A stretch of 64,000 bases of DNA from a virus (IMGVR_UViG_2841817361_000001:11215-75214), one strand, 5' to 3'. Shown: positions 37,478-54,529, counted from the first letter of the stretch. Numbers and translations: made by a program. Notes: generated by a model from the sequence alone, not told the origin.

Positions 37478-37486
37478 CATAAATTA

Positions 37487-38034: not shown

Positions 38035-38035
38035 T

Positions 38036-39336: not shown

Positions 39337-39347
39337 AATATTACAAA

Positions 39348-39803
39348 ATGAAACAACTAAAGATTGAAATTCCAGAAGGATTTAAAGTAGATGAATTTAA
39401 TCCAGAATCAGGTATTATTAAATTCAAACCTATACCACAGAACATTAAGGATAGAATTAAAACACTGGATGATGTTTATAACTATCATGACATAGATAAA
39501 GATGAATTTAATAGAAGTTTCAAATCATGTACAGAAGATGAAATTGCATACAAACACTTGAAATTAATAACATCAGCTCTAAATGAAGGCTGGGAGCCAG
39601 ATTGGGGGAATGGACAATGGGATAAGTGGTTCAACTGGTTCAATATGCCATCGAAAAATGGCCGGTTCTCGTTCGACGGCTCCTATGGTCGGAGCTCGTG
39701 TTCGGCTTGCGCTGCCCGCCTTTGCTTTAAATCAAAAGACCTTGCTGAGTATGCTGCAAAGCAATTTTTAGAGGTATATGAGAAATATATGGTTATTAAG
39801 TAA
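39348..39803 (+). CDS. DGR target protein 1 (remote)
   Basis: Contains VR1; shares the ALNEGWxPDW...ARLCFK domain with 51601 and 52098. Confidence 0.9.
   Translation: MKQLKIEIPEGFKVDEFNPESGIIKFKPIPQNIKDRIKTLDDVYNYHDIDKDEFNRSFKSCTEDEIAYKHLKLITSALNEGWEPDWGNGQWDKWFNWFNMPSKNGRFSFDGSYGRSSCSACAARLCFKSKDLAEYAAKQFLEVYEKYMVIK
39660..39724 (+). repeat. DGR variable repeat VR1
   Basis: Differs from TR 52511-52575 only at TR adenines (18 of 21 substituted). Confidence 0.95.
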
Positions 39804-39815
39804 AATCTTAGTTTT

Positions 39816-40040
39816 ATGAAGCATGTATTATACATAGTGATTTGTTTAGCAGGAATAATTTCATTAATAAATTTTTTGGAATCAAAATCTAATAAAGTAA
39901 AAAGTGCAAAACTTCAATGTGAATTAGGAATGAATCTATACAAACTAGAAATAACTAAATATAAAGGAAATTTTAAAAAGTCAGATTCAGCATATAATTC
40001 AGATATAGATAGAATACTAAATGATATTTATAAAAAATAA
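39816..40040 (+). CDS. Small membrane-anchored protein
   Basis: N-terminal hydrophobic helix. Confidence 0.5.
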   Translation: MKHVLYIVICLAGIISLINFLESKSNKVKSAKLQCELGMNLYKLEITKYKGNFKKSDSAYNSDIDRILNDIYKK

Positions 40041-40442
40041 ATGAATCCAATAGTAACATTTGACTTCGACAAGACTTTATCCAGAACAGATGTTCAACAA
40101 TACGCTAAACAACTTATTAAAAGAAATATAATAGTTTGGGTTGTTACAGCTAGATATGATGAACTCCATAAACATAGATGGATCATTAATCCATGCAATG
40201 AAGATCTACATAAAGTTATTGAAGAAGTTGGAATACCAAGACATCAAGTTAGGTTCCAATGTATGACACCAAAGTCAGATTACTTAAAACATACAAAAGT
40301 ACTTTGGCACTTAGATGATAATGAAGATGAACTATACAGTATTAAAATTAATAGTGATGTAAATCCGATTGATGTTAATTTTTCAACTTGGAAAGAAGAG
40401 TGCGAAGCTTTATTGGAAAAATATTTAAAACAAATCAAATAA
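40041..40442 (+). CDS. HAD-superfamily protein
   Basis: TFDFDKTL motif I, VVTAR motif II, K, HLDD motif IV. Confidence 0.75.
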   Translation: MNPIVTFDFDKTLSRTDVQQYAKQLIKRNIIVWVVTARYDELHKHRWIINPCNEDLHKVIEEVGIPRHQVRFQCMTPKSDYLKHTKVLWHLDDNEDELYSIKINSDVNPIDVNFSTWKEECEALLEKYLKQIK

Positions 40443-40699
40443 TTATGCAAAGACTGCTAACATTTATCTACGGAATATTTTGGCTTATCATAGGTTCTAT
40501 TTTATGTCCGTCAAAAAAAGAATTACTAGAGAATTTTAATGTATATGTAGTTATATATTTAATATTAACCTTGTATTCTTTTATTAAAGGCTTTAAAAAA
40601 ATGGATAAAGCAACTGAATGATATTACTACTAGTTGGGTTCACAGTTCTAATGATAACACTAGGATACTTAAAGCACAAATACAGAAAATACTAATTAA

Positions 40700-41146
40700 A
40701 TGTTTGATAAAAGTTCGCATTTTTATACAAACATATACCAATGAAATGGTGATGTTAATGTAAAAGAATACAAGGCTCCAACAGATGAAAGTATCAGAAT
40801 ACTTAATGAATTTGAGAAAAAATCTGAGGAGAATATTGTAAATAAAATTAATGTTAAAATATCAACTATTGATACAGTTCATATTGGATTCTCACATGAT
40901 CCATGTCTTTATGGAATAAACCATTTTGTCAAGTTTAATTTAAATGGAGAAGAACACAAACTTAAATATAATGTTGAATATGAAGAATATGATAACAATA
41001 AATGCTTTGGAATTCCATTTAATATAGCTGAACATCTAATTGAATATATGTCAAGAGCAATTGCAAAAGAAGTATTACTTAAAGGATATCCTAATGAAGT
41101 AATAAAGTCATATGAAAAACATTTAAACAGACAAGGAAATTATTAA
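40700..41146 (+). pseudogene. Phage gene interrupted by an in-frame TGA at codon 15
   Basis: MFDKSSHFYTNIYQ*NGDVNVKEYKAPTDESIRILNEF... open to TAA at 41144; missed by the ORF track. Confidence 0.7.
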
Positions 41147-41148
41147 CC

Positions 41149-41544
41149 ATGAGAATAATTGTAGCAGGATCAAGAGAATTTAACGACTACGAATTTCTTA
41201 AAAGTAAGTTAGATGAAATTGTAGCAGATGAAAATAATGTAGAGATAGTTTGTGGAATGTCAAAAGGTGCAGATTTATTAGGTAAACAATATGGAGAAGA
41301 AAGAAACTTTTGCGTTCACGAATATCCTGCTGAATGGAATAACATAGAAGACAAACATCCAGGAGAAATTAAATCTAATAAAAATGGTAGATACTGGATA
41401 AGGGCTGGAATAGTTAGAAATGAAACTATGGCACAGAATGCAGATATGTTAGTAGCATTTAGAGTTAACAAATCTTCTGGAACTTCCAACTTGATTGAAT
41501 TAGCTAAAAAGTATAAACTGAAAACAATTGTAATAGATATTTAA
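41149..41544 (+). CDS. SLOG-family (YspA/DUF2493-like) protein
   Basis: RIIVAGSREF, IVCGMSKGAD, AGIVRNETMA, SSGT motifs. Confidence 0.8.
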   Translation: MRIIVAGSREFNDYEFLKSKLDEIVADENNVEIVCGMSKGADLLGKQYGEERNFCVHEYPAEWNNIEDKHPGEIKSNKNGRYWIRAGIVRNETMAQNADMLVAFRVNKSSGTSNLIELAKKYKLKTIVIDI

Positions 41545-41547
41545 TAA

Positions 41548-41991
41548 ATGAAAATATTAGCCTTAGACATTGCTACTACAACAGGATATTCATCATCATC
41601 AGGAGAATCAGGAACTTTTAATTGCTCTTTCAAAAAAGGAGAATCAGGATCTATAAGATTACTCCGATTCAGAAATAAAGTTACTGAACTATTAGACTTA
41701 ATAAAACCAGACATTGTTGCCTATGAAAGATCAGCCGGAAGAAATACCCACTCAATTAAAACACAATCTGAAATGATTGGAGTATTAACTTTAATGCTGG
41801 AAGATAGAAATATTCATTATGCTTCTTACTCCCCTTCTGAGGTTAAGAAATTTTTTACAGGTAAAGGAAATGCCTCCAAAGAATATATGATTAAAACGGC
41901 TAAAAAAAAGTATCCTGAAATTGAGATAATAGATGACAATCATTCAGATGCATTGGCAATTTTAGAACTAGCTCAGTCTGATTTGTTGTAG
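41548..41991 (+). CDS. RuvC-like Holliday junction resolvase
   Basis: ILALDIAT, VAYE, VKKFFTGKGNASK, DNHSDALAI. Confidence 0.85.
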   Translation: MKILALDIATTTGYSSSSGESGTFNCSFKKGESGSIRLLRFRNKVTELLDLIKPDIVAYERSAGRNTHSIKTQSEMIGVLTLMLEDRNIHYASYSPSEVKKFFTGKGNASKEYMIKTAKKKYPEIEIIDDNHSDALAILELAQSDLL

Positions 41992-42047
41992 CGAACCATC
42001 AGTTGCGTTCACCAACCATATCTTAGTAACACACAAAAGCCCATGAT

Positions 42048-42401
42048 ATGGTAATTGAAAAAGGCATTATTATCCCAGCCTTCCTATTAGAAGAAGAGTT
42101 TGAACTAGATAATATCAATGAAGAAGAAGATGAATTTGAAGATGATATTGAAAAGCTAGTTAAAAACTCACTAAATGAAAAACCGGAAGAAAAAATTCCA
42201 TTCTTTCAATCAGAATTAATAAACATTCTTTTCTACGATATTTCAAATATAACTCCAGCTTCAGATAAATACTATGGTGATAATTGCAGCATTATTTTAT
42301 CTGGTGGAAAAGAATACTTCACAAACTTACCAATAGAAAGTATTCAAAATAAAATATATAACCTAAAACGAGAAGAAAACCTTTTATATATATCTAATTG
42401 A
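42048..42401 (+). CDS. Acidic hypothetical protein
   Basis: ATG ORF with a D/E-rich tract. Confidence 0.55.
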   Translation: MVIEKGIIIPAFLLEEEFELDNINEEEDEFEDDIEKLVKNSLNEKPEEKIPFFQSELINILFYDISNITPASDKYYGDNCSIILSGGKEYFTNLPIESIQNKIYNLKREENLLYISN

Positions 42402-42402
42402 A

Positions 42403-42706
42403 ATGAATAAATTCCTATTACTGCTTATACCTATTCTACTAATAAGTTGCAATGAACAACCTTTTACAGGCTATTGTGTTGGTAAGAAAAAAAACTGAAG
42501 GTCATCTAAGTGATCAAGAGGGAAGAATTATAAAATATGCTGTAATTGTCCCTCATGTACCAATGATTAGAAAGTCAAAACCAACTTGGGTTAAAACATC
42601 TTATCAAGTAGCAATTGCAAACTATGATACACATAAAATAAAGAATGTAGATTCAATTACCTTCTTTAGAATGAAACTTGGTGAAAAGTATACTTTTAAA
42701 AACTAA
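42403..42706 (+). pseudogene. Lipoprotein gene frameshifted at an A8 run
   Basis: MNKFLLLLIPILLISC... stops at 42496; removing one A from 42487-42494 joins it to the frame ending at 42706. Confidence 0.65.
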
Positions 42707-42709
42707 ACT

Positions 42710-42919
42710 ATGACAGATAAAAAAGCAAAGGAAATTGGGTTCACTCATAAAGGCAGAATGTATGGTGTACCAATTTATTTTTTCAATAATGGAGATTATC
42801 ACATACATTCTAAAAACTTTTTATGGAGTATTTATTTAGATATGCTAATATTCTTAGACATAAAAGTATTCAAAATAAATGACTCATTTGAGATTGATTA
42901 TGTACATAAATTAGATTAA
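42710..42919 (+). CDS. Hypothetical protein
   Basis: ATG ORF, GFTHKGRMYGVPIY motif. Confidence 0.6.
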   Translation: MTDKKAKEIGFTHKGRMYGVPIYFFNNGDYHIHSKNFLWSIYLDMLIFLDIKVFKINDSFEIDYVHKLD

Positions 42920-42943
42920 TAATTCCCGTTTACAAAATAAGAT

Positions 42944-43414
42944 ATGTCAGACAGATTTAAATACATACAAGATTATGCAGCTAATAATCCAAGACTATGT
43001 TATAGTGCATTAGAATTTTTACTAGGAGACTATATTGGACAAGGCTGTTCAAGAACCGTTTTCAAGTATGCTTTAGATCCTAAATATGTTGTTAAAATAG
43101 CAAAATCCGGAAGTTTTGATAATATACTTGAATATGAAATCTGGTGTAACATTAGATATACTGATCATAAAAAATATTTTGCCCCATGCTCATGGATTAG
43201 TGATGATGGAGTTATAATGCTTCAAAGAAAAACAAAACCTATCTATACACTTCCTGAAACTCTACCTTCATATTTCAGTGATATAAAACCAGATAACTTT
43301 GGAATGATTGGTAAACAAATAGTTGCACATGATTACGCTTTCAGTTTAGACCGATTTATAGCACTAACTAATTTAAATAAAACCAGAAAAGTAAAATCAA
43401 TATATTCAAAATGA
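42944..43414 (+). CDS. Minimal protein-kinase-like fold protein
   Basis: IGQGCSRTVF Gly loop, VVKIA lysine, E helix, DIKPDNFG catalytic loop, HDY. Confidence 0.7.
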   Translation: MSDRFKYIQDYAANNPRLCYSALEFLLGDYIGQGCSRTVFKYALDPKYVVKIAKSGSFDNILEYEIWCNIRYTDHKKYFAPCSWISDDGVIMLQRKTKPIYTLPETLPSYFSDIKPDNFGMIGKQIVAHDYAFSLDRFIALTNLNKTRKVKSIYSK

Positions 43415-43620
43415 AACACCTCCTATCAATACCAAAAGAATTCAAACAAATGCATATCGATAAATTCAAACAATACTTGGATGAAGGTTATGAAATTATC
43501 GAAGAAACACAAGTAAATGATTTCAAGTGCTACGTGTTTGAAAAGAAATTTGAATCTGTTGTTGACCAACTAAAAAATGAAATGATGTCAAAACGAATTT
43601 TATCAAGATTCGTTTACTAA
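43411..43620 (+). CDS. Hypothetical protein
   Basis: ATGA overlap with the kinase-like gene. Confidence 0.55.
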   Translation: MKHLLSIPKEFKQMHIDKFKQYLDEGYEIIEETQVNDFKCYVFEKKFESVVDQLKNEMMSKRILSRFVY

Positions 43621-43811
43621 TCAAAATTTACAGAAGTATAAGGTTACACCAGCAAATGAAAAAGATTTAAAAGTTAGCCCTTTTATATTTGATGAGATTG
43701 GTCAATATCCATATAACCAAACACAACTTACTCCAAGAACTTATACAGATTCAGAATTAGCACTTAGTGTATCAGTTGAAATGTTCCAGTTAATAAAAGA
43801 TAGAATAGCAA

Positions 43812-44186
43812 ATGGAAAATAACTTAGAAAACAAATCAATGTTTTTCGCTCAATACTATGGGCAAAATGTAAAAAGAAGTTATTTACCTGAGCAAACTTC
43901 ATTACAGGTAATTGACAGAGAAGTTTTTTGGATAGGACATTTAATAATAAATGGATACTTTAGAACTAAATATGAAGAAGCTTTAAAAAATCTAACAAAC
44001 TTTGATGAAGATTACTTCAACGATGAAAACAGAATAAAACTTTATGTATTACTTTCATCATTACAGAACAAAGAAATAATGTCACATCTCCAAGACATCT
44101 ATACCATAAGCCAACAAATACCACCTTCAGAATATCAAGTTATTGAAATGATAAATGAACTACTAGATCAAGGTGTTGAATTTTAG
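43812..44186 (+). CDS. Hypothetical protein
   Basis: ATG ORF, last gene before a long non-coding stretch. Confidence 0.55.
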   Translation: MENNLENKSMFFAQYYGQNVKRSYLPEQTSLQVIDREVFWIGHLIINGYFRTKYEEALKNLTNFDEDYFNDENRIKLYVLLSSLQNKEIMSHLQDIYTISQQIPPSEYQVIEMINELLDQGVEF

Positions 44187-45478
44187 GCTTAAATAAGATG
44201 ATTAAATCAATTTAAAAGTGAAATCCATATAAATTGTCACAATAATTATTTTGATTGATTTATAACGCCTTAAAATTATTAGAAGATGAAAGTAACAATC
44301 ATTAGTCTTTTTATATTGAAAATTAACGAATGATAGAGTTGAATGTCCAGTATATTTTGAGAGGGGGAGAAAAAAAATTGAGATAAAACATGAAAAAAAA
44401 CAACCCGGCACCTTGTAAATAGGCAAATGATTTTCTGATTTCAAACTCGATTTTATACAGATCATAATACTATTGGATAAGTAATTCAATTAAACATATT
44501 GCCATACAAAAGGATGTCTAAATCATTCTTAACAAAAGGTTGGAATATGTAGGTAGTAATGGGTATATAAAAATATTTTTCTGGTAAAAATTAGTTGCGT
44601 CTTCTTTATGGAGACGGTACACTAAATATAATCGCTAAGGGTATATAAATTATTTAATTAATAATACAGCCTCGGGAAAACAAAGACATAGTTAAATATA
44701 ATTATAGGTTTACATAAATAATTAATACCATATACCGTATAATATTGAATATTCAATATTTAATATTTCAGGAATCAATAATGCGTTTACTTTAATTTGA
44801 AATAGTATTATATATTATTCAATAAACACGCCTATAAAATATCAATAATAACATGGTTACATTACATTTCTTGATAACTGCATGTATTTTATCGAACACT
44901 CTATTGCATTATTCGCAAAAGCTAACGGAAAAGTATTAGTTCAAAAACTATAATAAATACTATATTTTTAGAATATTTACTAGATTAAATAGAATGTAAG
45001 GTTAAATAAGTGTTATATATATAATATAGTGAATAAACGGCTTAAATTCAGGTTTAAATGATTAATGTAATATAGTAAGATTGAAAATAAATATTATTGC
45101 TTGTATAGTGGTTAAATAAGCTTATAGTGTTAATTAGTATGTGTTATGATGATTAAGTACTCTAATAATATTATTTATTGACGTTATTTGTTATTGTGTT
45201 TTAATTATTATACTGGTTTATGCCCTTCGGGCTTTCTTAACTCTTTCTACTTATATATTACTCTTATTCTCTTAGTGTGGTTTCCCTCTGTTAGTAAACG
45301 CAAAAGATTCTAATTTACTATTAATAAAAAATCCCTAACATTTAAGCTGGGGATTTCTTTTGGTATTTACTTACAACTTATTATATTTACTTTAGGTTAT
45401 CCTAATTGTGTCAACGGTGAAATGAAGAAGCACCGAAAATGACACGGTGATGGTTGTCATTATTAAACTTGTAACATC

Positions 45479-45580
45479 ATGGCGGCAAAACCTAAAAACA
45501 AGTTCGTTAAAGTAAATAAACCAACCAAGGATGGTAGAACTTACTTTTTCAGAAGTAAACCTAAAAGCTGTAATAAGTAA
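45479..45580 (+). CDS. 33-aa basic peptide
   Basis: MAAKPKNKFVKVNKPTKDGRTYFFRSKPKSCNK followed by hairpin CAACCAGGAG..TTCTGGTTG and a T run. Confidence 0.45.
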   Translation: MAAKPKNKFVKVNKPTKDGRTYFFRSKPKSCNK

Positions 45581-45752
45581 TTAGGCTGCAACCAGGAGTT
45601 AATTCTTCTGGTTGTTTTTGTTATATACAAATATAGTGTATTTAGTATTATAGTTTTGTCTGCTGGTGTTGGCTTTTATTTGTAAACGCAAATTCTTCTA
45701 TTTGGCACATCATTTGAAAAATAATTATATATTTACTACTTAAATCAAAATC

Positions 45753-46163
45753 ATGAAATATTATAAACATTTACTCATTCTTTCATTTGTATTTTTTGCG
45801 TTTACTACCTTATTTTCTTGCAGTAGTAATAGAGATGATAATAATAATGTAAACAATAGATCTGTTGACATAGTTACATACACTGAGTTACCAGATAAAC
45901 CCTATTTACTTTTAGGTAAAGATTTTTCTATTGAAACAAAAGGAAAATGGGAGAAAAAAGGCATTCTTTTAGGCAATAATGTAGACCCATTTAACTTACA
46001 GGTCCGTTATCCTAATGGTAATTTAAATGCTGATTATGTTATTATATTAGAGATGTACGAAAATGGTAAACAGATTTATAGAATTGGCGGAAAAGGAAAA
46101 ATAGATCTAGAATTAAAAGAAGGTAATATTAGTCTTAAGTCTAATTATATTTTACCAAAATAG
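45753..46163 (+). CDS. Lipoprotein (moron)
   Basis: Signal peptide with lipobox LFSC followed by SSNRDDNNN. Confidence 0.75.
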   Translation: MKYYKHLLILSFVFFAFTTLFSCSSNRDDNNNVNNRSVDIVTYTELPDKPYLLLGKDFSIETKGKWEKKGILLGNNVDPFNLQVRYPNGNLNADYVIILEMYENGKQIYRIGGKGKIDLELKEGNISLKSNYILPK

Positions 46164-46180
46164 ATTAACACTATTAAACC

Positions 46181-46519
46181 CTATTCTTTTTCTTCCTTGA
46201 TATCATCTATCTGATTTTTAATGTTCTCATTTTCATATTCTAAATCATCTATTCTATCAGAATTGTCATCATATTTATAATTAGGTATGTTAGGTTGAGT
46301 ATTATTATCCTCTAAATCTAAAATTTTATTTTCCAACTCTTCAACACGATCATTTAGATCATCCACTTGATCATTTAGTTGAATAGTATTTTTTATTAGC
46401 TTCTTAATAATATCTTCATCTCTAATATGTTTCTTTGGAAATATTAATTTTGTTGATCCATAATAAGCAAATGAAATATAAGCTATAAAAACTAATGATA
46501 TAAAAATACTCTTTTTCAT
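46181..46519 (-). CDS. TM-anchored coiled-coil protein
   Basis: Hydrophobic N-terminus and heptad repeats. Confidence 0.6.
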   Translation of the reverse strand: MKKSIFISLVFIAYISFAYYGSTKLIFPKKHIRDEDIIKKLIKNTIQLNDQVDDLNDRVEELENKILDLEDNNTQPNIPNYKYDDNSDRIDDLEYENENIKNQIDDIKEEKE

Positions 46520-46722
46520 CTTCTTGGAGCTCTTCTAGTATAAGGTTGAACATAAGTTCCATTTTTTCTATAATACCCTTTAACATGAACTGTTCCAGAA
46601 CTATATCCACTAGAATACCCAGAACTAGGATAACTTGAATTATAATATACATCATTATTATAGCTGCCACATGAAGCAAAAACAATAAATACGATAAAAA
46701 GTAAAAGTTTTTTCATAAACAT
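46516..46722 (-). CDS. Small lipoprotein with HVKGYYRKNGTYVQPY motif
   Basis: Lipobox FASC, S/Y-rich linker, basic beta-hairpin motif. Confidence 0.7.
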   Translation of the reverse strand: MFMKKLLLFIVFIVFASCGSYNNDVYYNSSYPSSGYSSGYSSGTVHVKGYYRKNGTYVQPYTRRAPRR

Positions 46723-47276
46723 TATTTTACATAATCTTTAGCAAGATAATTTAAAAATTCCCTAAACTCTTTAAATGTGCTTTGTTTTTTAAACATTTCT
46801 GTTATCCTTTTTTCAGAATACAAAGTATTATTTACTAAAAAATTCATTAAATCGTCAAAAGCTACAAACTTGTAATTTTCTTTTGTAATATATATTTTGT
46901 TTTCCTCTATATCATCTAATAATAATTTATAATAACGTGAAAGATTTTCTTCATATTCATTCATAGTATTTTCAATTTTTCCACACCATATTATACGTTT
47001 ACTTTCTTCTTCAATCCTTGGAATCATTTCTATATTACTCTCAATAGCTTTAAGTTCAATTTTATTATTATCATTTATGAAATTCTTCCTATAGATCCAC
47101 TTATTAGATAAATTAATAGTATTAATAGAATTGACTTTTGCTTCAATTTTTCTAGTTTCCTGCTTAAGGATATTTAATCTTGAATATAAAGTTTCCATTT
47201 TTTTTGTCCCCTCCAATGTTTGACTATATAATATTGAATTAAACAATAAAAAAACTACCTTAATAAGCTTGATCAT
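46722..47276 (-). CDS. Exported hypothetical protein
   Basis: Signal peptide ending LYS-Q. Confidence 0.55.
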   Translation of the reverse strand: MIKLIKVVFLLFNSILYSQTLEGTKKMETLYSRLNILKQETRKIEAKVNSINTINLSNKWIYRKNFINDNNKIELKAIESNIEMIPRIEEESKRIIWCGKIENTMNEYEENLSRYYKLLLDDIEENKIYITKENYKFVAFDDLMNFLVNNTLYSEKRITEMFKKQSTFKEFREFLNYLAKDYVK

Positions 47277-47375
47277 AAAATTTATTTTAGCTAAAATTAA
47301 CTTTTAACTCCTTATGTAATTTAAAATTTAACATACTTTAACATTAATATATGTTGTACAAATAAAAAACATACG

Positions 47376-47575
47376 TAAATTTGTCATGTTCACATCATCG
47401 CTATAGGTATTTATGCTTATAGCACCAAAATTTAAAGTATAAAAATATTAAGCCTCGGAGGTGTCGTATAGTCGTAAGGCTATACACTTCAATGCGTAAG
47501 CGATGATGTGAACAGCACCCACCCGGGGCGTTTTATGTTTAAATAATTTTAAATTTAAATATTATGTTCACATCA
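47376..47575 (+). promoter_or_regulatory. Promoter plus structured C4/CI-like antisense leader
   Basis: TAAATTTG box; 47499-47514 is complementary to 47387-47402 (16/16) and to the start-codon region 47565-47575 (11/11); GNRA hairpins. Confidence 0.65.
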
Positions 47576-48220
47576 AATTCAAGCACAGACAGTGCGCAAT
47601 TAAAAGACAATGCAACGAATAACAGTAGTTCATTGCAATTCACAAAAGATCAGTATGATGTTTTTTCTAAGATTCTTTATGATACTATATCATTGAAAAG
47701 GATTAGTAAACTGATTGCTATTGACCCTATAAACGGGATCGATACTATTTCACTGCTTTTAAATGTTAAAATAGGATCTAAATTACATCAAAAATTTAAT
47801 GACGCTTTAACTAATCATTACTTTCAGGTAACAGATTATGCCGTTGCAACTATTATTTGCGAGATAGAAAGTTTATTTATAAACGCAAAATCTCCAAAAA
47901 TACCACCTACTAAATTTACAAATCCAGTAAAAAGAAAAATTCCCATAATAACTAGGAAGAAAATTAAACCTAAAAAGGAAGCAGTTAAACCCGTAATAGA
48001 AATAAATCACGAATTAATTACAGCTTCCGGTATTGCCGAACTATTAAATATATCTAAAGCTTCAGTTTACAAATATTATAGAGATAAATTAAAAGTAATT
48101 GCTGTAAGTAATGATAGCAGAACTTTATTTTTCAGTAAAAAAGATGTTTTAAAGCTTCATAAGGAAAGAAAAACTAAAAAGCCTATAAATATCAGCTTAA
48201 ATAAAAATTACTACTTCTAA
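47564..48220 (+). CDS. Protein with a C-terminal excisionase/MerR-like HTH (antirepressor or Xis-like regulator)
   Basis: LITASGIAELLNISKASVYKY...LFFSKKDV. Confidence 0.65.
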   Translation: MFTSNSSTDSAQLKDNATNNSSSLQFTKDQYDVFSKILYDTISLKRISKLIAIDPINGIDTISLLLNVKIGSKLHQKFNDALTNHYFQVTDYAVATIICEIESLFINAKSPKIPPTKFTNPVKRKIPIITRKKIKPKKEAVKPVIEINHELITASGIAELLNISKASVYKYYRDKLKVIAVSNDSRTLFFSKKDVLKLHKERKTKKPINISLNKNYYF

Positions 48221-48545
48221 CCTATTATTTAAATAAGCTTATTACATAACAACTACTAAGAGTTTTCCAAAACGGAGGCTCTTTTTTTTTGCTTTACAAG
48301 TAAATAAAATTACTTTTTACAACAATAAACAAACGTTAAAAGTTAAATTTTGATTATTGATTTTCAATTACTTACATAATTCATATACTTTTTATGTAAT
48401 TTATATTTGCATTTAATGTAATTAATTGTATACATTTGTAACAGATAAGAGAAGACGAAACAAACATTACTTTAAAATTTAAGATTTGAACCAACCTGAG
48501 CAAGTTGTTAAAAGGCTTTCTTTAAGATAACTAAACAATTATAAA

Positions 48546-48782
48546 ATGAAAACAACTACCCTAACAGAAGAACAAAAAGCAGATATAGTAACAATTACTT
48601 TTTTATCTATTGGAGTAATACTATTAATATCCTTCTTTGCTTTTATCATTCCTAATATAACATTAGATCAACAGGTTGAAGATTATAAACGCAATATGCA
48701 GCAAAAGGAAATTAAAGAAGCTCATGACTTTCATGAAAAAATGATGCTTGAAGAAAATAAAAAATACATTTCAAATCATTGA
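48546..48782 (+). CDS. Single-TM protein, first gene of an early operon
   Basis: TM helix; TACATTTG box near 48431. Confidence 0.6.
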   Translation: MKTTTLTEEQKADIVTITFLSIGVILLISFFAFIIPNITLDQQVEDYKRNMQQKEIKEAHDFHEKMMLEENKKYISNH

Positions 48783-48881
48783 TTTATTAACTCGACTAAG
48801 CGAGTATAAAAAGGTTTCAAGCTTAGAGCGTTGATAGGGATAAAAACCTATCAGGTAACAACAACTAAAAAATATTACAAA

Positions 48882-49340
48882 ATGAAAACTAACAAATACA
48901 CATACTTAAAAGTAATTCAACAGAATTTAAGTGGTAAATGGAAGGATATAGAAGAAGTGGAAGCGAATAGTATATATATTCCTAAATGCGGAGAAAGTAT
49001 TTTTAAAACGCTTCTTTCTGGTTATAAATTATTGGGAGTAAGCACTAAAACAATTAACAGAAGGGTTATAAACGAAAAAACTTCATTAAGACAAAATTTT
49101 AAAGACTGTGATGATTTTGCAAACTATGTTTTAGATAGTGTTTTAGATTATGGTGAAATCATTAGTAATGAATTTAATCAATTAACTGGATTAAATATAA
49201 AAGTTGGTTCAGACATTAATACAATTGAATCATTGCCTTGTCTGGGGATAAATTACATTGAATTAGGTTCTGTAAAATCTATGCTTTATGATCTGTATTA
49301 CTTCTTAATCAAAGAAAATAAAATAAACACACTTAACTAA
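48882..49340 (+). CDS. Hypothetical protein
   Basis: ATG 48882 (MKTNKYTYLKVIQQ) preferred over TTG 48831. Confidence 0.55.
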   Translation: MKTNKYTYLKVIQQNLSGKWKDIEEVEANSIYIPKCGESIFKTLLSGYKLLGVSTKTINRRVINEKTSLRQNFKDCDDFANYVLDSVLDYGEIISNEFNQLTGLNIKVGSDINTIESLPCLGINYIELGSVKSMLYDLYYFLIKENKINTLN

Positions 49341-49352
49341 AAATCACAAATA

Positions 49353-49682
49353 ATGAAACCATTTGAATACAAAAATAAATATGGATCTTTAAAATTAATA
49401 CCTGTTAGCGATCTAATGAAAGTAAGCAACATTAAAGGGGTCGATATTGATAAAAAATACAAATTTGATATAAATACAGCTGAAAAAGTTGCTTTAATAA
49501 CTGAAAATTATGACACTCAAATGTCATTCGGATTTCCTATTACAAACCAAGCTTATATAATTAAACATGAATCTTCTTCAACTGGTTATATATGTGAATT
49601 ATCAGATCTAAATTTTAATAAGGAAGTAAACGCAACGAACGAAATTTTACAAAGAAATAAATATAGTTCCATTCTAATTTAA
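49353..49682 (+). CDS. Hypothetical protein
   Basis: ATG ORF in operon. Confidence 0.55.
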   Translation: MKPFEYKNKYGSLKLIPVSDLMKVSNIKGVDIDKKYKFDINTAEKVALITENYDTQMSFGFPITNQAYIIKHESSSTGYICELSDLNFNKEVNATNEILQRNKYSSILI

Positions 49683-49694
49683 ATAAAACAAATC

Positions 49695-49886
49695 ATGTTT
49701 GAAGAAAAAATAATTGCATGCACAACGTATGTAACAGGTATTGCCTTGCTTTTTAATCCGGCTCCTGAGCTTAAATATATAGGAGGAATTATTACAGTTA
49801 CTTTAATGGTTGTAGGTATTCCAGTAGTGTATGAACTAGCTAAAACCTTTGTTAGTAAACGCAAAAGATTAAAAAATGCAAAATAA
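49695..49886 (+). CDS. Two-TM small protein
   Basis: Two hydrophobic helices and a basic tail. Confidence 0.55.
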   Translation: MFEEKIIACTTYVTGIALLFNPAPELKYIGGIITVTLMVVGIPVVYELAKTFVSKRKRLKNAK

Positions 49887-49961
49887 TATTTCACTAATAG
49901 CATATTACAACGGAGATATTGACAAAATGATACAAATATTAATTCATTTGAAATAAAAAAT

Positions 49962-50246
49962 ATGAATATCAATGGAACAAAAGAAATTATAATTGATGAA
50001 AGTTCAATATTCAAACCAACATCAGGATATGTTAGTGTTAAATTAACCAACTTAGAAGGCTGGCCAGTTGCTACAGTTTATGGAGAAAATTTTGAAACAT
50101 TAAAGGCAAACGCAGTTTTATTCTCCAAAGCTCCGGAAATGCTTGAAATTTTAAGTAGAGTATTAGATTGTCAAGCACAGGCTCATACTCTTCCTTCATG
50201 GCTAAATGAGGAAATAGAAAACCTAATAAAAGAAGCAACAGAATGA
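49962..50246 (+). CDS. Hypothetical phage protein
   Basis: ANAVLFSKAPEMLEIL...LIKEATE, a common early phage protein motif. Confidence 0.65.
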   Translation: MNINGTKEIIIDESSIFKPTSGYVSVKLTNLEGWPVATVYGENFETLKANAVLFSKAPEMLEILSRVLDCQAQAHTLPSWLNEEIENLIKEATE

Positions 50247-50556
50247 AAATATTTTTACTCCTGTCAATTTTTGCAGTATTAGCAATAATATCACTTTTCA
50301 TAGTTAAGCCTTACAATTTAATAATAAGAATGTTAAATAAATAATATCCCAATGAACACCATTTTAAAAATATTCAGAAAGAAAATACAGGAAGAAATAC
50401 AACCCTGTGGAGTAATTCAAATCGGAAAATATCCGGAAAATTACAATGATCTAGGCACAAAATTCATGTCTCATCAAAGAAACATTCGTGCAAGGGCATA
50501 GGTAAAAAAATAACAAGTAAAAAAAACAAAGCTCCCCGAAGGAAGCTTATTACAAA

Positions 50557-51594
50557 ATGAAAACAACCATTTATGGAAGTCTTCAAAACAACTATAACAA
50601 AGATATGAATTATTTAGAATTAAAACAAGACACTACCCTTTCTCATAATTCAGAAATGCAATATTTCAATTCATTTTTCCAGGACCTTTTAAAAGGGTTA
50701 CAGAGTGGTAAATATATTACAGACAAGGGGACTAAATATTCTCTCACGACAATAAGACATTATAAAAATGCTTATGACTGGTTTGTTTTTTGGGAAGCTC
50801 ACATTGGTATTCAATTACAAATGAATGAGGTAATATATAATACTGTTGAAATGTTTAAAACGTTTCTTAGCAATTATCATCTTACATTAAATAGTGTATC
50901 AGTTATTATCTCTAAAATTAAATCTGTGCTAAACTTTGCTTTTAAGTCGGGCAAGCATTTTTGGAATGGTACAGGAATAAAGATAGTGAAGGAAAAAAAT
51001 CCAAAAACGTATTTAACAATTGAAGAATTAAAGCAAATGCGTTCATGTAAATTTTTAACTGCTGCTGAAGAAATGGTTTTAGACAATTTTACAATTCAGT
51101 TTTATATTGGTCAAAGGTATGAAACAACACAAAGATTCTTAAAGCAACCTTTTGCATTCACAAGACAACATGGAGAATTCTCATATATAGAAATTGAAGC
51201 ATATAAAACAGGAAATGTATCATATATTCCATTAGGTGAAATTGTAAAGGGTATTATCCAAAAATATAATGGTTTAGTTCCTGTATATTCCAGAACTTAC
51301 ATTAATCGCATAATTAAAGTAGTTGCGTTTAAAGCAGGATTAATTCAATTAATTGCAACTCGTGAAACACGTAATCAAAAAGTTGTTAGAGAATTTATTC
51401 CAAAGTATTCTCTTATATCTACACACACTGCAAGAAGGTCCTTAGTATCAAATCTTAAACAATTAAATTTTTCAAATCAATCAATAATGGGAATTACATC
51501 TCATGGTACAGAAGTACAATTAAATGACTATAACAGATCACAAGTAGAAAAAATAAAATCAATATTAGGTCACGAATTTTTTAACAAAATATAA
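50557..51594 (+). CDS. Tyrosine recombinase (second integrase-like gene)
   Basis: SAM-like N domain; GQRY, K, HTARRS, TSH and catalytic Y in NDYNR. Confidence 0.85.
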   Translation: MKTTIYGSLQNNYNKDMNYLELKQDTTLSHNSEMQYFNSFFQDLLKGLQSGKYITDKGTKYSLTTIRHYKNAYDWFVFWEAHIGIQLQMNEVIYNTVEMFKTFLSNYHLTLNSVSVIISKIKSVLNFAFKSGKHFWNGTGIKIVKEKNPKTYLTIEELKQMRSCKFLTAAEEMVLDNFTIQFYIGQRYETTQRFLKQPFAFTRQHGEFSYIEIEAYKTGNVSYIPLGEIVKGIIQKYNGLVPVYSRTYINRIIKVVAFKAGLIQLIATRETRNQKVVREFIPKYSLISTHTARRSLVSNLKQLNFSNQSIMGITSHGTEVQLNDYNRSQVEKIKSILGHEFFNKI

Positions 51595-51600
51595 AATCTC

Positions 51601-52086
51601 ATGAAGAATTTAGAAATCACTCAAGAAGCAGCCGTAAAAGCATACTCTGAAGCTTCAAAAAATGGAAAACTATTACTAGAAAATCTTTTCGGAAAAAAGG
51701 TATTTCTTGTAGATATTAAAGAAAGAATAAAATCTATTGAAGACGCAATTAATGAACTTGGAGAAAATGATGATGAAGTAATTGTATTAAGAGCCTTAGA
51801 AGTAGCAGGTATTAATAATCATATTTTATATACTCAATGGCTAGTAGTTATTACCAAAGCTCTAAATGAAGGCTGGGAGCCAGATTGGGGGAATGGACAA
51901 TGGGATAAGTGGTTCAACTGGTTCAATATGCCATCGAAAAATGGCCGGTTCTCGTTCTTCGGCTCCTATTATCGGAGCTCGTTTTCGCTTTGCTCTGCCC
52001 GCCTTTGCTTTAAATCAAAAGAACTTGCTGAGCACGCTGCTAATCAATTCTTAGAGGTGTATGAGAAATCTTATACTAATCAATAA
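51601..52086 (+). CDS. DGR target protein 2
   Basis: Contains VR2; EAAVKAY...LLENLFGKKVF N-terminus. Confidence 0.9.
   Translation: MKNLEITQEAAVKAYSEASKNGKLLLENLFGKKVFLVDIKERIKSIEDAINELGENDDEVIVLRALEVAGINNHILYTQWLVVITKALNEGWEPDWGNGQWDKWFNWFNMPSKNGRFSFFGSYYRSSFSLCSARLCFKSKELAEHAANQFLEVYEKSYTNQ
51943..52007 (+). repeat. DGR variable repeat VR2
   Basis: Differs from TR only at adenines (18 of 21). Confidence 0.95.
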
Positions 52087-52097
52087 AACTAATTTAA

Positions 52098-52469
52098 ATG
52101 AATGTAACAGATAAAGTAAAAAGTTTTGAAGATGCGTGTCAATTATTAGGACTAAAACCTGATGTTCCAAAAGTATCATTATTACCAGAAAAATACCAAA
52201 AATCTATAGTAGCACATTATAAATTGATAATTATTACTGAAGCATTAAATGAAGGCTGGACAGCTGATTGGAGTAATTGGAATGAAAGAAAATATTATCC
52301 TTGGTTTGAAATGAGTGATTCTTCTGGCCGGTTCTCGTTCGGCAGCTCCGATTATCTGTGCTCGAATTCGGATTGCGCTGCCCGCCTTTGTTTAAAAACA
52401 CGGGATTTAGCAAATTACATAGGTGAATCGTTCATTGATTTATATAAAGATTATTTCATAATAGATTAA
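52098..52469 (+). CDS. DGR target protein 3
   Basis: Contains VR3; VKSFEDAC...ALNEGWTADW...KYYPWF. Confidence 0.9.
   Translation: MNVTDKVKSFEDACQLLGLKPDVPKVSLLPEKYQKSIVAHYKLIIITEALNEGWTADWSNWNERKYYPWFEMSDSSGRFSFGSSDYLCSNSDCAARLCLKTRDLANYIGESFIDLYKDYFIID
52326..52390 (+). repeat. DGR variable repeat VR3
   Basis: Differs from TR only at adenines (15 of 21); identity extends 8 nt further 5' (ATTCTTCT). Confidence 0.95.
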
Positions 52470-52474
52470 ATTCT

Positions 52475-52680
52475 TAAGGTTGTACAGTTTCATGTTGCTC
52501 TTATTCTTCTAGCCAGTTCTCGTTCAACAACTCCAATAATCAGAACTCGAATTCGAATTGCACTACCCACCTATGTTTTTAATATAAAAACTGTAAACCT
52601 TACCTCTTGGTAAAAAATAATTCACTTTCATAAAGGCGTTGGTAAGTATTACTGAAAACGACTTTTCTAAAGCAAAGATT
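52475..52680 (+). ncRNA. DGR template RNA region (TR core 52511-52575 plus flanking stem and spacer)
   Basis: Intergenic AAC/AAT-rich repeat AGC CAG TTC TCG TTC AAC AAC TCC AAT AAT CAG AAC TCG AAT TCG AAT TGC ACT ACC CAC CTA TG; RNA ends are inferred. Confidence 0.9.
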
Positions 52681-53643
52681 ATGAAAAGAATAAACAATTT
52701 ATTTGAAAAAATAATTTGCATTGACAATGTAAAACAAGCAGATATAAATGCTCAAAAAGGAAAAAGCAAACAATATGGTGTAAAACTACATAATAAAAAC
52801 AAAGAGTTAAACATTAGTGAATTACATAACTCACTTAAATTAAAACAGTACAAAACCTCGCAATATGATATTTTCACAATAACAGAACCTAAAGAAAGAG
52901 AAATATACAGACTTCCATATTTCCCAGATAGAATAATGCATCATGCTATTATGAATGTATTAGAACCATTATTTGTTTCAACTTTTACTAGTGATACTTA
53001 TAGTTGTATAAAAAAAAGAGGCATACATAAAGCTTCTTATAATTTAAGAAAATCTTTAAAGCGTAAAAATGAGACTATATATTGTCTAAAGTTGGATATA
53101 AAAAAGTTTTACCCAAATATTAATCACGAAATTTTAAAAAGTTTACTATTAAAGAAGTTTAAAGATAAAGATCTATTATGGCTTCTAAATGAAATAATTG
53201 ATAGTGCTCCAGGTTTACCAATTGGAAATTACTTAAGTCAGTATCTAGCAAACTTTTATCTAACATATTTTGATCATTGGGTAAAGGAAGAATTAAAAGT
53301 TAAGTACTATTTCAGATATGCAGATGATATAGTCATACTTAACACTTCAAAAGAAAACCTTCACATAATATTAAATCAAATTAAAGACTATTTAAGCATT
53401 AAATTAAAATTACTAGTAAAAGAAAATTGGCAAATATTTCCGGTAGAAAAAAGAGGTATTGACTTCGTTGGATATGTTCATTATCATAATCATGTTAAGC
53501 TTAGAAAATCAATAAAAAAGAAATTTGCAGCCATGATTAAAAGAAATCCTAATAAAGCTTCTATAGCATCATACTCTGGATGGACAAAACACTGTAACTC
53601 ACATAATCTTATGAAAAAACTTTTAAATAATGTTCCACTTTAG
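52681..53643 (+). CDS. DGR reverse transcriptase
   Basis: LKLDIKKFY, DGR-type GLPIGNYLSQ, RYADD, GIDFVGY; no maturase or endonuclease tail; ATG 52681 preferred over TTG 52639. Confidence 0.95.
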   Translation: MKRINNLFEKIICIDNVKQADINAQKGKSKQYGVKLHNKNKELNISELHNSLKLKQYKTSQYDIFTITEPKEREIYRLPYFPDRIMHHAIMNVLEPLFVSTFTSDTYSCIKKRGIHKASYNLRKSLKRKNETIYCLKLDIKKFYPNINHEILKSLLLKKFKDKDLLWLLNEIIDSAPGLPIGNYLSQYLANFYLTYFDHWVKEELKVKYYFRYADDIVILNTSKENLHIILNQIKDYLSIKLKLLVKENWQIFPVEKRGIDFVGYVHYHNHVKLRKSIKKKFAAMIKRNPNKASIASYSGWTKHCNSHNLMKKLLNNVPL

Positions 53644-53926
53644 TGATTTTAACATCAAACCTAAAGAAAACGCATTTACAGGAAAAAAAATAGACATTGA
53701 TGATATTTTAAATATTGAAATTATAATATATAAATATCAAATTAAAGACTCTACAAAAAAATCAAATACAAAATATCTCACTTTACAAATTGAGATAGAT
53801 AAAATTCAAAGAATTGTCTTCACAGGATCTAAAAATCTAATTGATTTAATAACTCAAGTACCAGAAGACAAATTTCCATTTTTCACTACTATCAAAAAGA
53901 ATGATCGTAGACTAGAATTCACTTAA
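53630..53926 (+). CDS. Putative DGR accessory protein (beta-rich, not Avd-like)
   Basis: Overlaps the RT stop by 14 bp; FTGKKIDIDDILN...VFTGS..L...FPFFTTI. Confidence 0.55.
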   Translation: MFHFSDFNIKPKENAFTGKKIDIDDILNIEIIIYKYQIKDSTKKSNTKYLTLQIEIDKIQRIVFTGSKNLIDLITQVPEDKFPFFTTIKKNDRRLEFT

Positions 53927-53942
53927 CAAATAAATTATTTAT

Positions 53943-54455: not shown

Positions 54456-54529
54456 CACATTACAAATTAACAATTTTCCCCCGGCAGAGTCCTAGCAAAG
54501 CCGGGGTTTTAAAACAAAACAATCATATC

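What the first reader, a model, noticed from the sequence alone, without database searches (positions are those of the whole stretch)
39348..53926. Three-target DGR diversifying small non-tail proteins, one target 13 kb from the RT
Seen: the 65-nt TR (52511-52575) matches VR1 (39660), VR2 (51943) and VR3 (52326) with every mismatch at a TR adenine (18, 18 and 15 of 21). The three VRs give different residues (FDGSYGRSSCSAC, FFGSYYRSSFSLC, FGSSDYLCSNSDC). The RT carries IGNYLSQ and YADD. Known: the Bordetella BPP-1 DGR and most characterised phage DGRs mutate a tail receptor-binding protein. Here I saw no VR in either tail gene. The targets are 123-161 aa, lack signal peptides, sit in the early region, have different N-termini, and the VR ends about 26 codons before the stop. 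Inference: a family of hypervariable intracellular binders, possibly for host takeover, anti-defence or phage exclusion, all fed by one template.
Basis: partly seen in the sequence, partly recalled or inferred. Interest (0 to 1): 0.88.

Follow-up and report, generated by a model that had tools for sequence, protein, structure and literature searches.

The report
Active phage retroelement diversifying small non-tail proteins
A prophage, probably of Elizabethkingia, carries a working diversity-generating retroelement that rewrites a short loop in three small proteins encoded among its replication and early genes, not its tail genes, and the same protein family is a second, overlooked target in some crAss-like and Bacteroides phages.

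Summary
TR 52511-52575 matches three VRs with 18, 18 and 15 mismatches, all at TR adenines. The RT has the DGR motif IGNYLSQ and YADD.

The element has been active recently. Near-identical prophages differ only inside the VRs, at 26 of 26 TR-adenine positions.

Multi-target, non-adjacent and Avd-less DGRs are already in print, and the TR-RT spacer is the Rfam motif RT-17.

The more informative part is the target family, phrog_11581:
- It has no Pfam match and at least 5,124 clusters.
- It occurs across Bacteroidota phages and has no signal peptide.
- It sits in replication, recombination or early modules.
- In crAss-like cr56_1 and cr52_1 and in Bacteroides phage Versailles, one TR feeds both the tail protein and a distant member of this family.

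A 2025 Nature paper already notes distal second VRs near counter-defence genes.

A conserved basic 98-aa ORF follows the RT, and a covarying helix brackets the TR.

The fold and function of the targets remain untested because the structure tools were off. The intracellular-binder reading is plausible but unproven.

The parts
39348..39803 (+). Target 1 (151 aa, N-terminal type A '..LKIEIPEGF..'), phrog_11581; VR1 at 39660-39724
   Evidence: ORF; VR; phrog_11581 E 9.6e-17; VR1 differs at 8 TR-A positions in run X2
39575..39659 (+). 85-nt run identical to 51858-51942, directly upstream of VR1 and VR2; a recombination substrate between T1 and T2
   Evidence: related record L011 joins window 33349-39766 to 51859-56037
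50557..51594 (+). Integrase-like gene immediately upstream of target 2 (neighbour, not shown to be part of the DGR)
   Evidence: Phage_int_SAM_5 E 4.6e-07; phrog_1 integrase E 3.3e-11
51601..52086 (+). Target 2 (161 aa, helical-looking N-terminal type B '..LLENLFG..'), phrog_11581; VR2 at 51943-52007
   Evidence: cluster members identical outside residues 120-132; 11 VR-only differences in runs X6, X7, X13
52098..52469 (+). Target 3 (123 aa, short type C), phrog_11581; VR3 at 52326-52390
   Evidence: 7 VR-only differences in runs X6, X7, X13
52479..52598 (+). P1 helix (52479-52490 pairs with 52588-52598) that encloses the whole TR
   Evidence: RNAalifold on 30 loci; 8 of 10 P1 pairs show compensatory changes, 96.1% of cells paired; coordinates
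52511..52575 (+). Template repeat. Adenines 52526-52562 vary in VRs. Adenines 52511, 52515, 52565, 52569 and 52573 show fixed differences in every VR seen (IMH*/IMH-like 3' end)
52596..52679 (+). TR-RT spacer RNA = Rfam RF03020 (RT-17); helices P2 52601-04/52609-12, P4 52633-39/52658-64, P3 52645-46/52652-53
   Evidence: 42.3 bits against gathering score 40.4, E 7.2e-07; covariation
52681..53643 (+). DGR reverse transcriptase (320 aa from ATG 52681; frame open from TTG 52639)
   Evidence: RVT_1 E 8.6e-20; phrog_1423 E 1.4e-118; IGNYLSQ and YADD; 63-72% nt identity to crAss-like phage RTs
53630..53926 (+). ORF98: conserved basic (pI 9.1) 98-aa protein overlapping the RT stop by 14 nt; candidate accessory factor of unknown fold
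   Evidence: phrog_19665; homologue in 64 of the 70 RT-bearing loci, overlap of -14 nt in 31 of 64; no Pfam or PDB relative
53943..54455 (+). 170-aa ORF; on my own reading it starts MKNILVVTLLVVTTALHAQ, which looks like a signal peptide (no predictor was run); neighbour
   Evidence: weak OMP_b-brl E 0.0081; conserved with the cassette only in L011
54530..56044 (+). DNA methyltransferase (DUF4942), neighbour; possible counter-restriction gene
   Evidence: DUF4942 E 8.2e-27; DNA methyltransferase PHROGs

Best explanation
This is an active diversity-generating retroelement of the Avd-less TR-RT type, in a podovirus-like prophage whose close relatives are in Elizabethkingia genomes.

Likely mechanism (inferred by analogy with BPP-1):
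- The operon T2-T3-TR-spacer-RT-ORF98 is transcribed.
- The TR is held in a loop closed by helix P1 and is followed by the RT-17 spacer RNA.
- The RT, possibly helped by the basic ORF98, copies the TR into cDNA and misreads adenines.
- The cDNA replaces the homologous 65-nt VR in any of the three paralogous targets, whether next to the cassette or 13 kb away.
- The 3' end of the TR carries fixed A-for-G/T differences from all VRs, which probably marks it as donor only.

Sixteen adenines (seven AAY codons, one CAG, one ACT) allow about 15^7 x 4 x 4, or roughly 3e9, protein variants per target. This figure is my own arithmetic.

The targets belong to a very large family with no Pfam match (phrog_11581). 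Its members are 120-200 aa, have no signal peptide and occur in Bacteroidota phages. The variable segment is homologous to the variable C-terminal end of the tail-protein DGR targets of crAss-like phages.

The genes lie in replication, recombination or early modules. I therefore read the products as soluble, non-structural binding proteins made early, most likely acting in phage-host conflict (counter-defence or takeover) rather than as tail receptor-binding proteins.

Shown: the anatomy, recent activity, the RNA structure, the family's distribution and context, and dual targeting in known phages. Inferred: the reverse-transcription steps, the role of ORF98, the fold, and where and how the targets act.
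For: DGR anatomy:
- A-only mismatches of 18, 18 and 15 of 21 TR adenines.
- RT with IGNYLSQ and YADD.
- RT-17 above its gathering score.
- 96.6% of cells paired against 34-43% when the partners are slid, and 17 of 22 pairs with compensatory changes.

Recent activity:
- Three cluster members of T2 are identical outside residues 120-132 and differ at 7-9 VR residues.
- Contigs of X6, X7 and X13 over 48879-54000 differ at 18 places, all in VR2 or VR3. X2 differs at 8 places in VR1. All 26 lie at TR adenines.

The cassette is a conserved unit:
- RT in 70 of 80 viral loci and ORF98 in 64 of 80.
- A-only TR/VR pairs in 72 of 80 loci.

Non-structural context:
- In the window: HNH, RuvC-like, excisionase-like, integrase-like and methyltransferase genes.
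- The most frequent upstream neighbour clusters are an ATPase (phrog_6891, 30 loci) and a DNA transposition protein (phrog_296, 26 loci).
- Copies with no RT nearby sit beside a methyltransferase, Ant, a DNA polymerase, SbcC, a transposase, a replication initiator and a DnaC loader.
- In phage Versailles the family member lies between NinB and the replisome organiser.
- In cr56_1 it lies in a block of small ORFs.

Independence from virion type: the window's TerL is found in 1 of 50 cassette-bearing records, which range from 31 to 299 kb.

No hydrophobic N-terminus in 157 of 157 members.

VR-module homology: relatives from Bacteroidales hit positions 500-545 of 548 of phrog_5302 at E 1e-7 to 6e-4. 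phrog_5302 is the family of the crAss tail target.

A Nature 2025 paper notes distal second VRs near counter-defence genes (PMC12629997, passages read).
Against: - No direct evidence on where the proteins are located, when they are expressed, or what they bind.
- Gene position is only circumstantial. In 21 related loci a neck or tail-completion gene lies about 2 kb downstream on the other strand.
- The variable module is shared with tail proteins. In cr56_1, cr52_1 and Versailles the same TR feeds a tail protein. This fits a receptor-binding role just as well.
- The window's own three proteins do not hit phrog_5302.
- Profile comparisons with the Mtd family and the cr53_1 tail end are not significant (P 0.016 and 0.026).
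- There are no Pfam C-type-lectin matches.
- The fold could not be predicted.
- ORF98 could be unrelated cargo. It is absent by sequence from crAss-like phages and from Versailles.
- X6, X7 and X13 carry one and the same VR variant, so they count as one comparison.
Confidence: 0.55

Rival explanations
1. The small proteins are virion-associated receptor-binding or adhesion modules. Their N-terminal modules (types A, B, C) would dock on the tail or capsid. They would simply be encoded away from the structural genes, so the DGR would serve host-range or adhesion switching as in BPP-1.
For: The variable segment is homologous to the variable end of crAss tail-protein targets. One TR feeds both a tail protein and a small protein in cr56_1, cr52_1 and Versailles. 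Roux et al. assume that unannotated viral targets are unknown structural proteins (10.1101/2020.04.01.020958, passages read). The conserved pairing of one long and one short paralogue (51 of 79 loci in the AC, BC or oC order) would fit an assembly.
Against: The genes consistently lie in replication, recombination or early modules on the early strand. The cassette occurs with unrelated packaging modules (TerL shared in 1 of 50 records). No fused forms with tail domains were found (weak evidence). The best 150 of 5,124 clusters are 121-353 aa, and the long ones are tandem doubles.
Confidence: 0.27
2. The cassette serves the lysogen. The diversified proteins would be sensors or blockers that recognise incoming phages or mobile elements (superinfection exclusion or defence), expressed from the prophage.
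For: In this prophage the cassette lies near an integrase-like gene, a methyltransferase and a putative outer-membrane protein, in a moron-like position. Intracellular DGR targets in bacterial conflict systems are in print (PMC10907252, abstract seen in a search listing).
Against: There is no effector domain in or next to the targets. In Mu-like relatives the cassette follows the transposition genes on the early strand, which I would expect to be repressed in lysogens. The family also occurs in crAss-like phages, which I recall as mostly not temperate.
Confidence: 0.12
3. The DGR is an inactive relic and the VR differences are old.
For: No read-level heterogeneity could be examined, because all runs were kept as contigs.
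Against: Prophages identical over 5.1 kb differ only at 18 TR-adenine positions in the VRs. Seven members of one 90% cluster all have different VRs. The RT and ORF98 are intact and the RNA structure is conserved.
Confidence: 0.03

Closest known systems
Bordetella phage BPP-1 DGR (mtd-avd-TR-brt)
   Same: TR/VR pair with adenine-specific mutagenesis, an RT with the GxxxSQ motif, the VR near the 3' end of the target, and a structured spacer RNA between TR and RT (RT-10 in BPP-1, RT-17 here; PMC5737381 passages).
   Different: There is no Avd. There are three targets instead of one. The targets are 123-161 aa and lie outside the structural module, whereas Mtd is a 381-aa tail protein. No significant profile similarity to the Mtd family was found. 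A different small basic ORF follows the RT.
DGRs of crAss-like phages (cr53_1, cr56_1, cr52_1, cr60_1) and Bacteroides phage Versailles
   Same: Related RT (63-72% nt identity; 48% aa identity for Versailles). No Avd is annotated. The variable module is homologous. Members of the same small-protein family are also targets of the TR in cr56_1, cr52_1 and Versailles.
   Different: In those phages the primary target is an adjacent 413-853-aa tail protein next to the lysis genes, and the small protein is a distant second target. Here no tail target exists, the small proteins sit next to the TR, and ORF98 is present.
Gut Bacteroidota prophages with a second distal VR (PMC12629997, Nature 2025)
   Same: A second VR far from the RT cassette, near counter-defence genes such as a DNA methyltransferase (passages read). 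Phages of that collection hold family members (BT-TP2, BI-TP1, PV4-TP1).
   Different: That paper reports tail-targeting DGRs with an extra VR in four species. In the passages I read it does not name or characterise the target family. I could not see its Extended Data Fig. 3c or its supplementary tables. I assign the three phages to that paper from their names only.
Architecture A (accessory-less) and multi-target DGRs of Wu et al. 2018 (PMC5758913)
   Same: TR-RT core without avd (29% of 372 DGRs), more than one target (about 15%), and non-adjacent targets within the same prophage. The smallest targets consist of the variable domain alone (passages read).
   Different: The conserved ORF98 and the TR-bracketing helix are not among the accessory genes named there (Avd, HRDC, MSL, CH1). 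The supplementary tables, which may list members of this lineage, were closed.

Membership tests
Diversity-generating retroelement | Reverse transcriptase of the DGR clade with motif-4 signature [LIV]GxxxSQ and YxDD | tested here: met
   IGNYLSQ at 181-187 and YADD at 213-216, invariant or nearly so in 54 aligned RTs; RVT_1 and phrog_1423
Diversity-generating retroelement | TR/VR repeats whose mismatches fall at TR adenines | tested here: met
   51 of 51 mismatches at TR adenines over three VRs
Diversity-generating retroelement | VR in the 3' part of a protein-coding target, with variable adenines at codon positions 1 and 2 | tested here: met
   Each VR is in frame and ends 25-26 codons before the stop; 20 of 21 TR adenines are at codon positions 1 or 2
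Diversity-generating retroelement | Evidence of mutagenic homing (variation confined to VR positions that face TR adenines) | tested here: met
   26 of 26 between-run differences in the VRs lie at TR adenines, with none elsewhere in 48879-54000; cluster members differ only at VR residues. This is comparative evidence, not experimental.
Diversity-generating retroelement | Accessory variability determinant (Avd) | tested here: not met
   No PF05635 match at E <= 1 in the 75-kb record. This is not disqualifying, because 29% of curated DGRs lack accessory genes (PMC5758913 passages).
Diversity-generating retroelement | IMH at the 3' end of the VR and IMH* in the TR | tested here: inconclusive
   All VRs read GCC CGC CTT where the TR reads ACC CAC CTA, and these three adenines never vary. 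Related TRs keep the same adenines. The function was not tested, and no cruciform was found downstream of the VRs.
Rfam RF03020 (RT-17 RNA) | Covariance-model score at or above the gathering score | tested here: met
   42.3 bits against 40.4, full-length match of model positions 1-95
PHROG phrog_11581 (unknown function) | Significant profile match | tested here: met
   E 9.6e-17, 3.7e-24 and 1e-26 for the three targets
C-type-lectin-fold DGR variable proteins | Sequence match to Pfam families that cover such domains (FGE-sulfatase PF03781, Lcl_C/DUF1566 PF07603), or to the Mtd family | tested here: not met
   No Pfam hits. hhalign against 79 Mtd-type domains aligns only the variable segments, P 0.016. 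No relative among solved structures by sequence.
C-type-lectin-fold DGR variable proteins | The fold itself, with the VR forming an exposed surface | not testable with these tools
Indirect evidence: Bacteroidales relatives match the variable end of phrog_5302, whose crAss members are annotated as Mtd/sulfatase-like.
Phage tail receptor-binding protein | Encoded in the structural or tail module, or shown to be in the virion | tested here: not met
   The context is replication, recombination or early genes. Presence in the virion cannot be tested here.

The most novel reading that the evidence does not exclude
Bacteroidota phages use a DGR to keep a hypervariable repertoire of small intracellular binders. 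These binders would be built from the same variable module as the tail receptor-binding protein but made with the early and replication genes. They would let phage populations adapt quickly to variable host defence or takeover targets, as a phage counterpart of an antibody repertoire. In the lineage seen here the DGR has given up the tail target altogether and, together with a new accessory protein (ORF98), serves only this repertoire.
Probability: 0.3. Interest if true: 0.85.

Novelty: new variant of a known kind. Interest (0 to 1): 0.55.

Why it matters
Phage DGRs are usually read as host-range devices, and unannotated viral targets are assumed to be structural proteins.

This target family challenges that default for a large share of Bacteroidota phage DGRs:
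- It is very common: 5,124 clusters at 50% identity, and 245 IMG/VR stretches.
- It is consistently encoded among replication and early genes.
- It is sometimes the only target of the DGR.
- It is also an unremarked second target in some crAss-like phages.

If the proteins act inside the cell, this would be programmed hypervariation of a non-structural phage function.

The question is testable in cultured, non-pathogenic systems such as Bacteroides phage Versailles and the temperate gut phages. The conserved ORF98 and the TR-bracketing helix also bear on how Avd-less DGRs work.

Tried and rejected
Fold of the targets:
- The Atlas has no model and lists only unnamed look-alike clusters.
- Profile searches of the PDB found nothing below E 0.05.
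- Pfam found nothing for the window's targets or for ten relatives.
- FGE-sulfatase and Lcl_C profiles found nothing in the record.
- hhalign and BLASTP against the Mtd family and the cr53_1 tail end align variable segment to variable segment, but not significantly.

Fused forms: a word-based search for longer proteins found none (weak evidence).

ORF98:
- No Pfam or PDB relative.
- One weak phage hit.

RNA and DNA structure:
- Folding the TR region as a single sequence gave z = 0.41, which is not informative. Only the comparative analysis showed the structure.
- No inverted repeat of note lies downstream of the VRs.
- The sigma-70 promoter scan does not suit Bacteroidota and I do not use it. 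No + strand terminator-like site lies between T2 and ORF98, apart from one inside VR2.

Expression and read-level variation:
- No RNA holder was listed.
- All runs were kept as contigs, so heterogeneity within a sample could not be read.
- I first took the contig breaks at 51887-51995 for VR heterogeneity. I rejected that, because the 85-nt exact repeat shared by T1 and T2 explains them.

Other negative results:
- The small protein gp86 of cr60_1 showed no A-only match to its TR.
- tblastn of T2 against 50,697 phage records found nothing. Relatives appeared only when I queried with a Bacteroidales member.

Literature:
- No paper holds both 'diversity-generating retroelement' and 'Elizabethkingia'.
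- Searches found no description of this cassette or family.

Full report
**1.
An ungapped comparison shows TR 52511-52575 (65 nt, 21 adenines) against VR1 39660, VR2 51943 and VR3 52326. There are 18, 18 and 15 mismatches, every one at a TR adenine, and no other mismatch. Twenty of the 21 adenines are at codon positions 1 or 2. The TR reads SQFSFNNSNNQNSNSNCTTHLC in the target frame.

The three VRs lie in ORFs of 151, 161 and 123 aa that align with each other. The RT (ATG 52681 to 53643) matches RVT_1 and phrog_1423. It has IGNYLSQ and YADD at positions that are invariant or nearly so among 54 related RTs.

A degenerate VR pattern finds only these three VRs and the TR in the whole record. The record is a 75,214-bp IMG/VR provirus of which the window is bases 11215-75214.

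**2. What kind of phage and host.**
- The large terminase is 34% identical to those of Cellulophaga phages phi19:3, phi13:2, phi46:3 and phi18:3, and 32% to Flavobacterium 'elemo' phages.
- Portal and virion proteins are recognisable.
- Structural genes fill about 1-36 kb.
- A + strand block from 36.6 to 62 kb holds HNH, RuvC-like, excisionase-like, integrase-like and DNA methyltransferase genes. A tyrosine integrase ends the record.
- The closest relatives of the targets (82-94% identity) are named as Elizabethkingia anophelis, bruuniana and miricola proteins on chromosomal-size contigs. The host is therefore most likely an Elizabethkingia.

**3. The DGR has been active recently.**
- The 90%-identity cluster of T2 has seven members, all with different VRs. 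Three of them are identical to the window outside residues 120-132 and differ at 7-9 residues inside. T3 behaves the same way.
- Contigs of runs X6, X7 and X13 cover 48879-54000 and differ from the window at 18 places: 11 in VR2, 7 in VR3 and none elsewhere. Run X2 differs at 8 places in VR1 and has an identical VR3.
- All 26 places face TR adenines.
- X6, X7 and X13 carry one and the same variant, so they count as a single comparison.
- The adenines that vary are 52526-52562. Adenines 52511, 52515, 52565, 52569 and 52573 differ from the VRs in a fixed way. At the 3' end the VRs read GCC CGC CTT and the TR reads ACC CAC CTA. I read this as an IMH/IMH*-like donor-recipient distinction, but that is inference.
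- Contig breaks near 51887 are explained by an 85-nt exact repeat shared by T1 and T2, not by heterogeneity.

**4. The cassette is a conserved unit.**
- Of 442 pattern matches in IMG/VR, 245 encode a relative of the targets. I examined the best 80 loci.
- By tblastn, 70 of the 80 have the RT and 64 have a homologue of the 98-aa ORF that follows it. That ORF starts inside the end of the RT gene, by exactly 14 nt in 31 of 64 loci.
- My own scan found A-only TR/VR pairs in 72 of 80 loci. Seven had none and one had only a doubtful short-range match.
- The usual gene order is one long paralogue followed by one short one. L005 and L037 have three adjacent targets.
- ORF98 is basic (pI 9.1, median 9.16) and has no Pfam or PDB relative.
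- No Avd profile match exists in the record.

**5. The RNA.**
- Rfam RT-17 (RF03020) matches 52596-52679 above its gathering score. This is the TR-RT spacer. According to Weinberg et al., RT-10 holds the same position in BPP-1, and they guessed that other RT motifs serve DGRs (PMC5737381, passages read).
- An alignment of 30 loci adds a 10-bp helix, 52479-52490 with 52588-52598, that encloses the whole TR.
- Over the four helices, 96.6% of cells pair, against 34-43% when the partners are slid. Seventeen of 22 pairs show compensatory changes, and none of 500 shuffles reaches the observed values.
- I found no description of the TR-bracketing helix in the papers I read. I did not search the literature for it specifically.

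**6. The 13-kb distance.**
T1 and T2 have unrelated 5' halves. They share an exact 85-nt run just upstream of the VR and 80-97% identity for about 90 nt after it.

The near-identical record behind L011 is colinear with window 33349-39766 and then with 51859-56037. It therefore lacks the 12.1 kb between the two targets and carries one hybrid, apparently frameshifted gene there.

The remote position of T1 is thus a rearrangement between paralogous targets, not a special design. Non-adjacent targets inside prophages are in print (PMC5758913). So is a target 17.5 kb from its TR in Faecalibacterium phage Toutatis (10.1101/2024.10.15.618418, passages read).

**7. The target family.**
- All three targets match phrog_11581 (unknown function) and no Pfam family.
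- A profile of 106 members finds 5,124 representative clusters at E <= 0.001 and 3,791 at E <= 1e-10. The best 150 are 121-353 aa, and the long ones contain two copies.
- Seventy-eight loci from species genomes carry it. By my reading of the record titles, 77 are Bacteroidota of all major orders and one is a MAG labelled Methylacidiphilales.
- None of 157 members has a hydrophobic N-terminus.
- Only 42 of the 78 genome loci have the RT within 2.5 kb.
- The copies with no RT nearby sit beside a DNA methyltransferase, anti-repressor Ant, a DNA polymerase, an SbcC-like nuclease, a transposase, a replication initiator and a DnaC-like loader.
- Among the 80 viral loci, the most frequent upstream neighbour clusters on the same strand are an ATPase (phrog_6891, 30 loci) and a DNA transposition protein (phrog_296, 26 loci). 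That is the early region of Mu-like phages. Neck and head genes lie downstream on the other strand.
- The window's terminase type occurs in only 1 of 50 cassette-bearing records. These range from 31 to 299 kb.

**8. The link to tail-protein targets.**
- Bacteroidales members of the family hit the last 45 positions of phrog_5302 ('tail protein') at E 1.2e-7 to 6e-4.
- phrog_5302 is the family of the crAss-like DGR tail target. Both the body and the variable end of cr53_1 gp71 match it.
- The window's own targets do not reach it.
- In known phages the family is itself a DGR target. In cr56_1 the TR matches the adjacent tail protein (20 of 20 mismatches at adenines over 84 nt) and the small gp09 about 55 kb away (18 of 18 over 67 nt). 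In cr52_1 the figures are 24 of 24 and 14 of 14. In Bacteroides phage Versailles they are 11 of 11 and 14 of 14 over 107-108 nt. In cr60_1 only the tail target matched.
- The Versailles small protein lies between NinB and a replisome organiser, although its record labels it 'tail protein'. cr56_1 gp09 lies in a block of small unannotated ORFs.
- The papers on crAss DGRs that I read mention only the tail or receptor-binding target (PMC11054128 passages; PMC7290462 abstract seen in a search listing).
[quoted passage not shown] This is the closest prior statement. I could not see its figure or tables.

**9. Interpretation.**
The DGR and its recent activity are well supported. The fold of the targets is open. 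There is indirect evidence that the variable segment is the same module as in Mtd/sulfatase-like tail targets, but no direct test was possible.

Gene context, the lack of export signals and independence from virion type favour soluble non-structural proteins made with the early and replication genes. The shared module and shared TR with tail proteins keep a virion-associated role alive. My odds are about 0.55 non-structural binders, 0.27 virion-associated, 0.12 lysogen-serving sensors and 0.03 relic.

**10. Novelty and score.**
Each headline feature of the finding is already known: multiple targets, a remote target, small targets and the absence of Avd. What I did not find in print (searches; supplements closed) is the following:
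- a DGR lineage that targets only this family of small proteins in early-region genes, with a conserved ORF98 and a TR-bracketing helix;
- the size, phylum-wide spread and context of the family;
- its role as a second target in crAss-like phages.

I rate it a new variant of a known kind, with interest 0.55.

Noticed in passing
window 12855-23228 (-): A single ORF of 3,457 aa in the structural block with no PHROG or Pfam match. It may be a giant virion or ejected protein of this podovirus-like phage.
   Followed up: partly
window 7102-11687 (+): The large terminase (phrog_6681) and portal (phrog_6547) are most like those of Cellulophaga phages phi19:3, phi13:2, phi46:3 and phi18:3 and Flavobacterium 'elemo' podoviruses, at 32-34% identity. 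An integrated relative of that lytic-looking group would be of interest in itself.
   Followed up: partly
window 39767-51858: The 12.1 kb between targets 1 and 2 holds RuvC-like, excisionase-like and integrase-like genes. It is absent from the near-identical record behind L011, where the two targets are merged into one apparently frameshifted gene.
   Followed up: partly
window 48542-48879: A 336-bp stretch is skipped in contigs of three runs (X6, X7, X13). This is an indel relative to the window, over the ORF at 48546-48782.
   Followed up: no
window 31957-32028 (-) and 37404-37478 (+): Two phage-borne tRNA genes, Trp(cca) and Met(cat).
   Followed up: no
window 50557-51594 (+) and 62771-64000 (-): There are two integrase-like genes. 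The one at the record's end has a Phage_integrase catalytic domain. The one just upstream of the DGR matches only the SAM-like N-terminal domain in Pfam.
   Followed up: no
L085 11-2572 (crAss-like phage cr53_1 gp71): The annotated tail-protein DGR target has one in-frame stop under table 11, shortly before its variable end. This is consistent with stop-codon recoding in that phage, which I did not test.
   Followed up: no
L247 5205-5271, L254 2735-2799, L246 5232-5338: Small phrog_11581 proteins of crAss-like cr56_1 and cr52_1 and of Bacteroides phage Versailles carry VRs that match the TR beside the tail-protein target, tens of kb away in the same genome. The records annotate them as hypothetical or 'tail protein'.
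   Followed up: yes
L080 (IMG/VR record of 299,351 bp with direct terminal repeats): A jumbo-sized viral record carries a family member, with no RT detected within the 6-kb flanks.
   Followed up: no
L250 8233-8661 (Bacteroides phage Versailles): A 142-aa ORF overlaps the end of the Versailles RT gene by 38 nt. It may be a positional counterpart of ORF98. tblastn of ORF98 against the phage collection did not hit this record.
   Followed up: no
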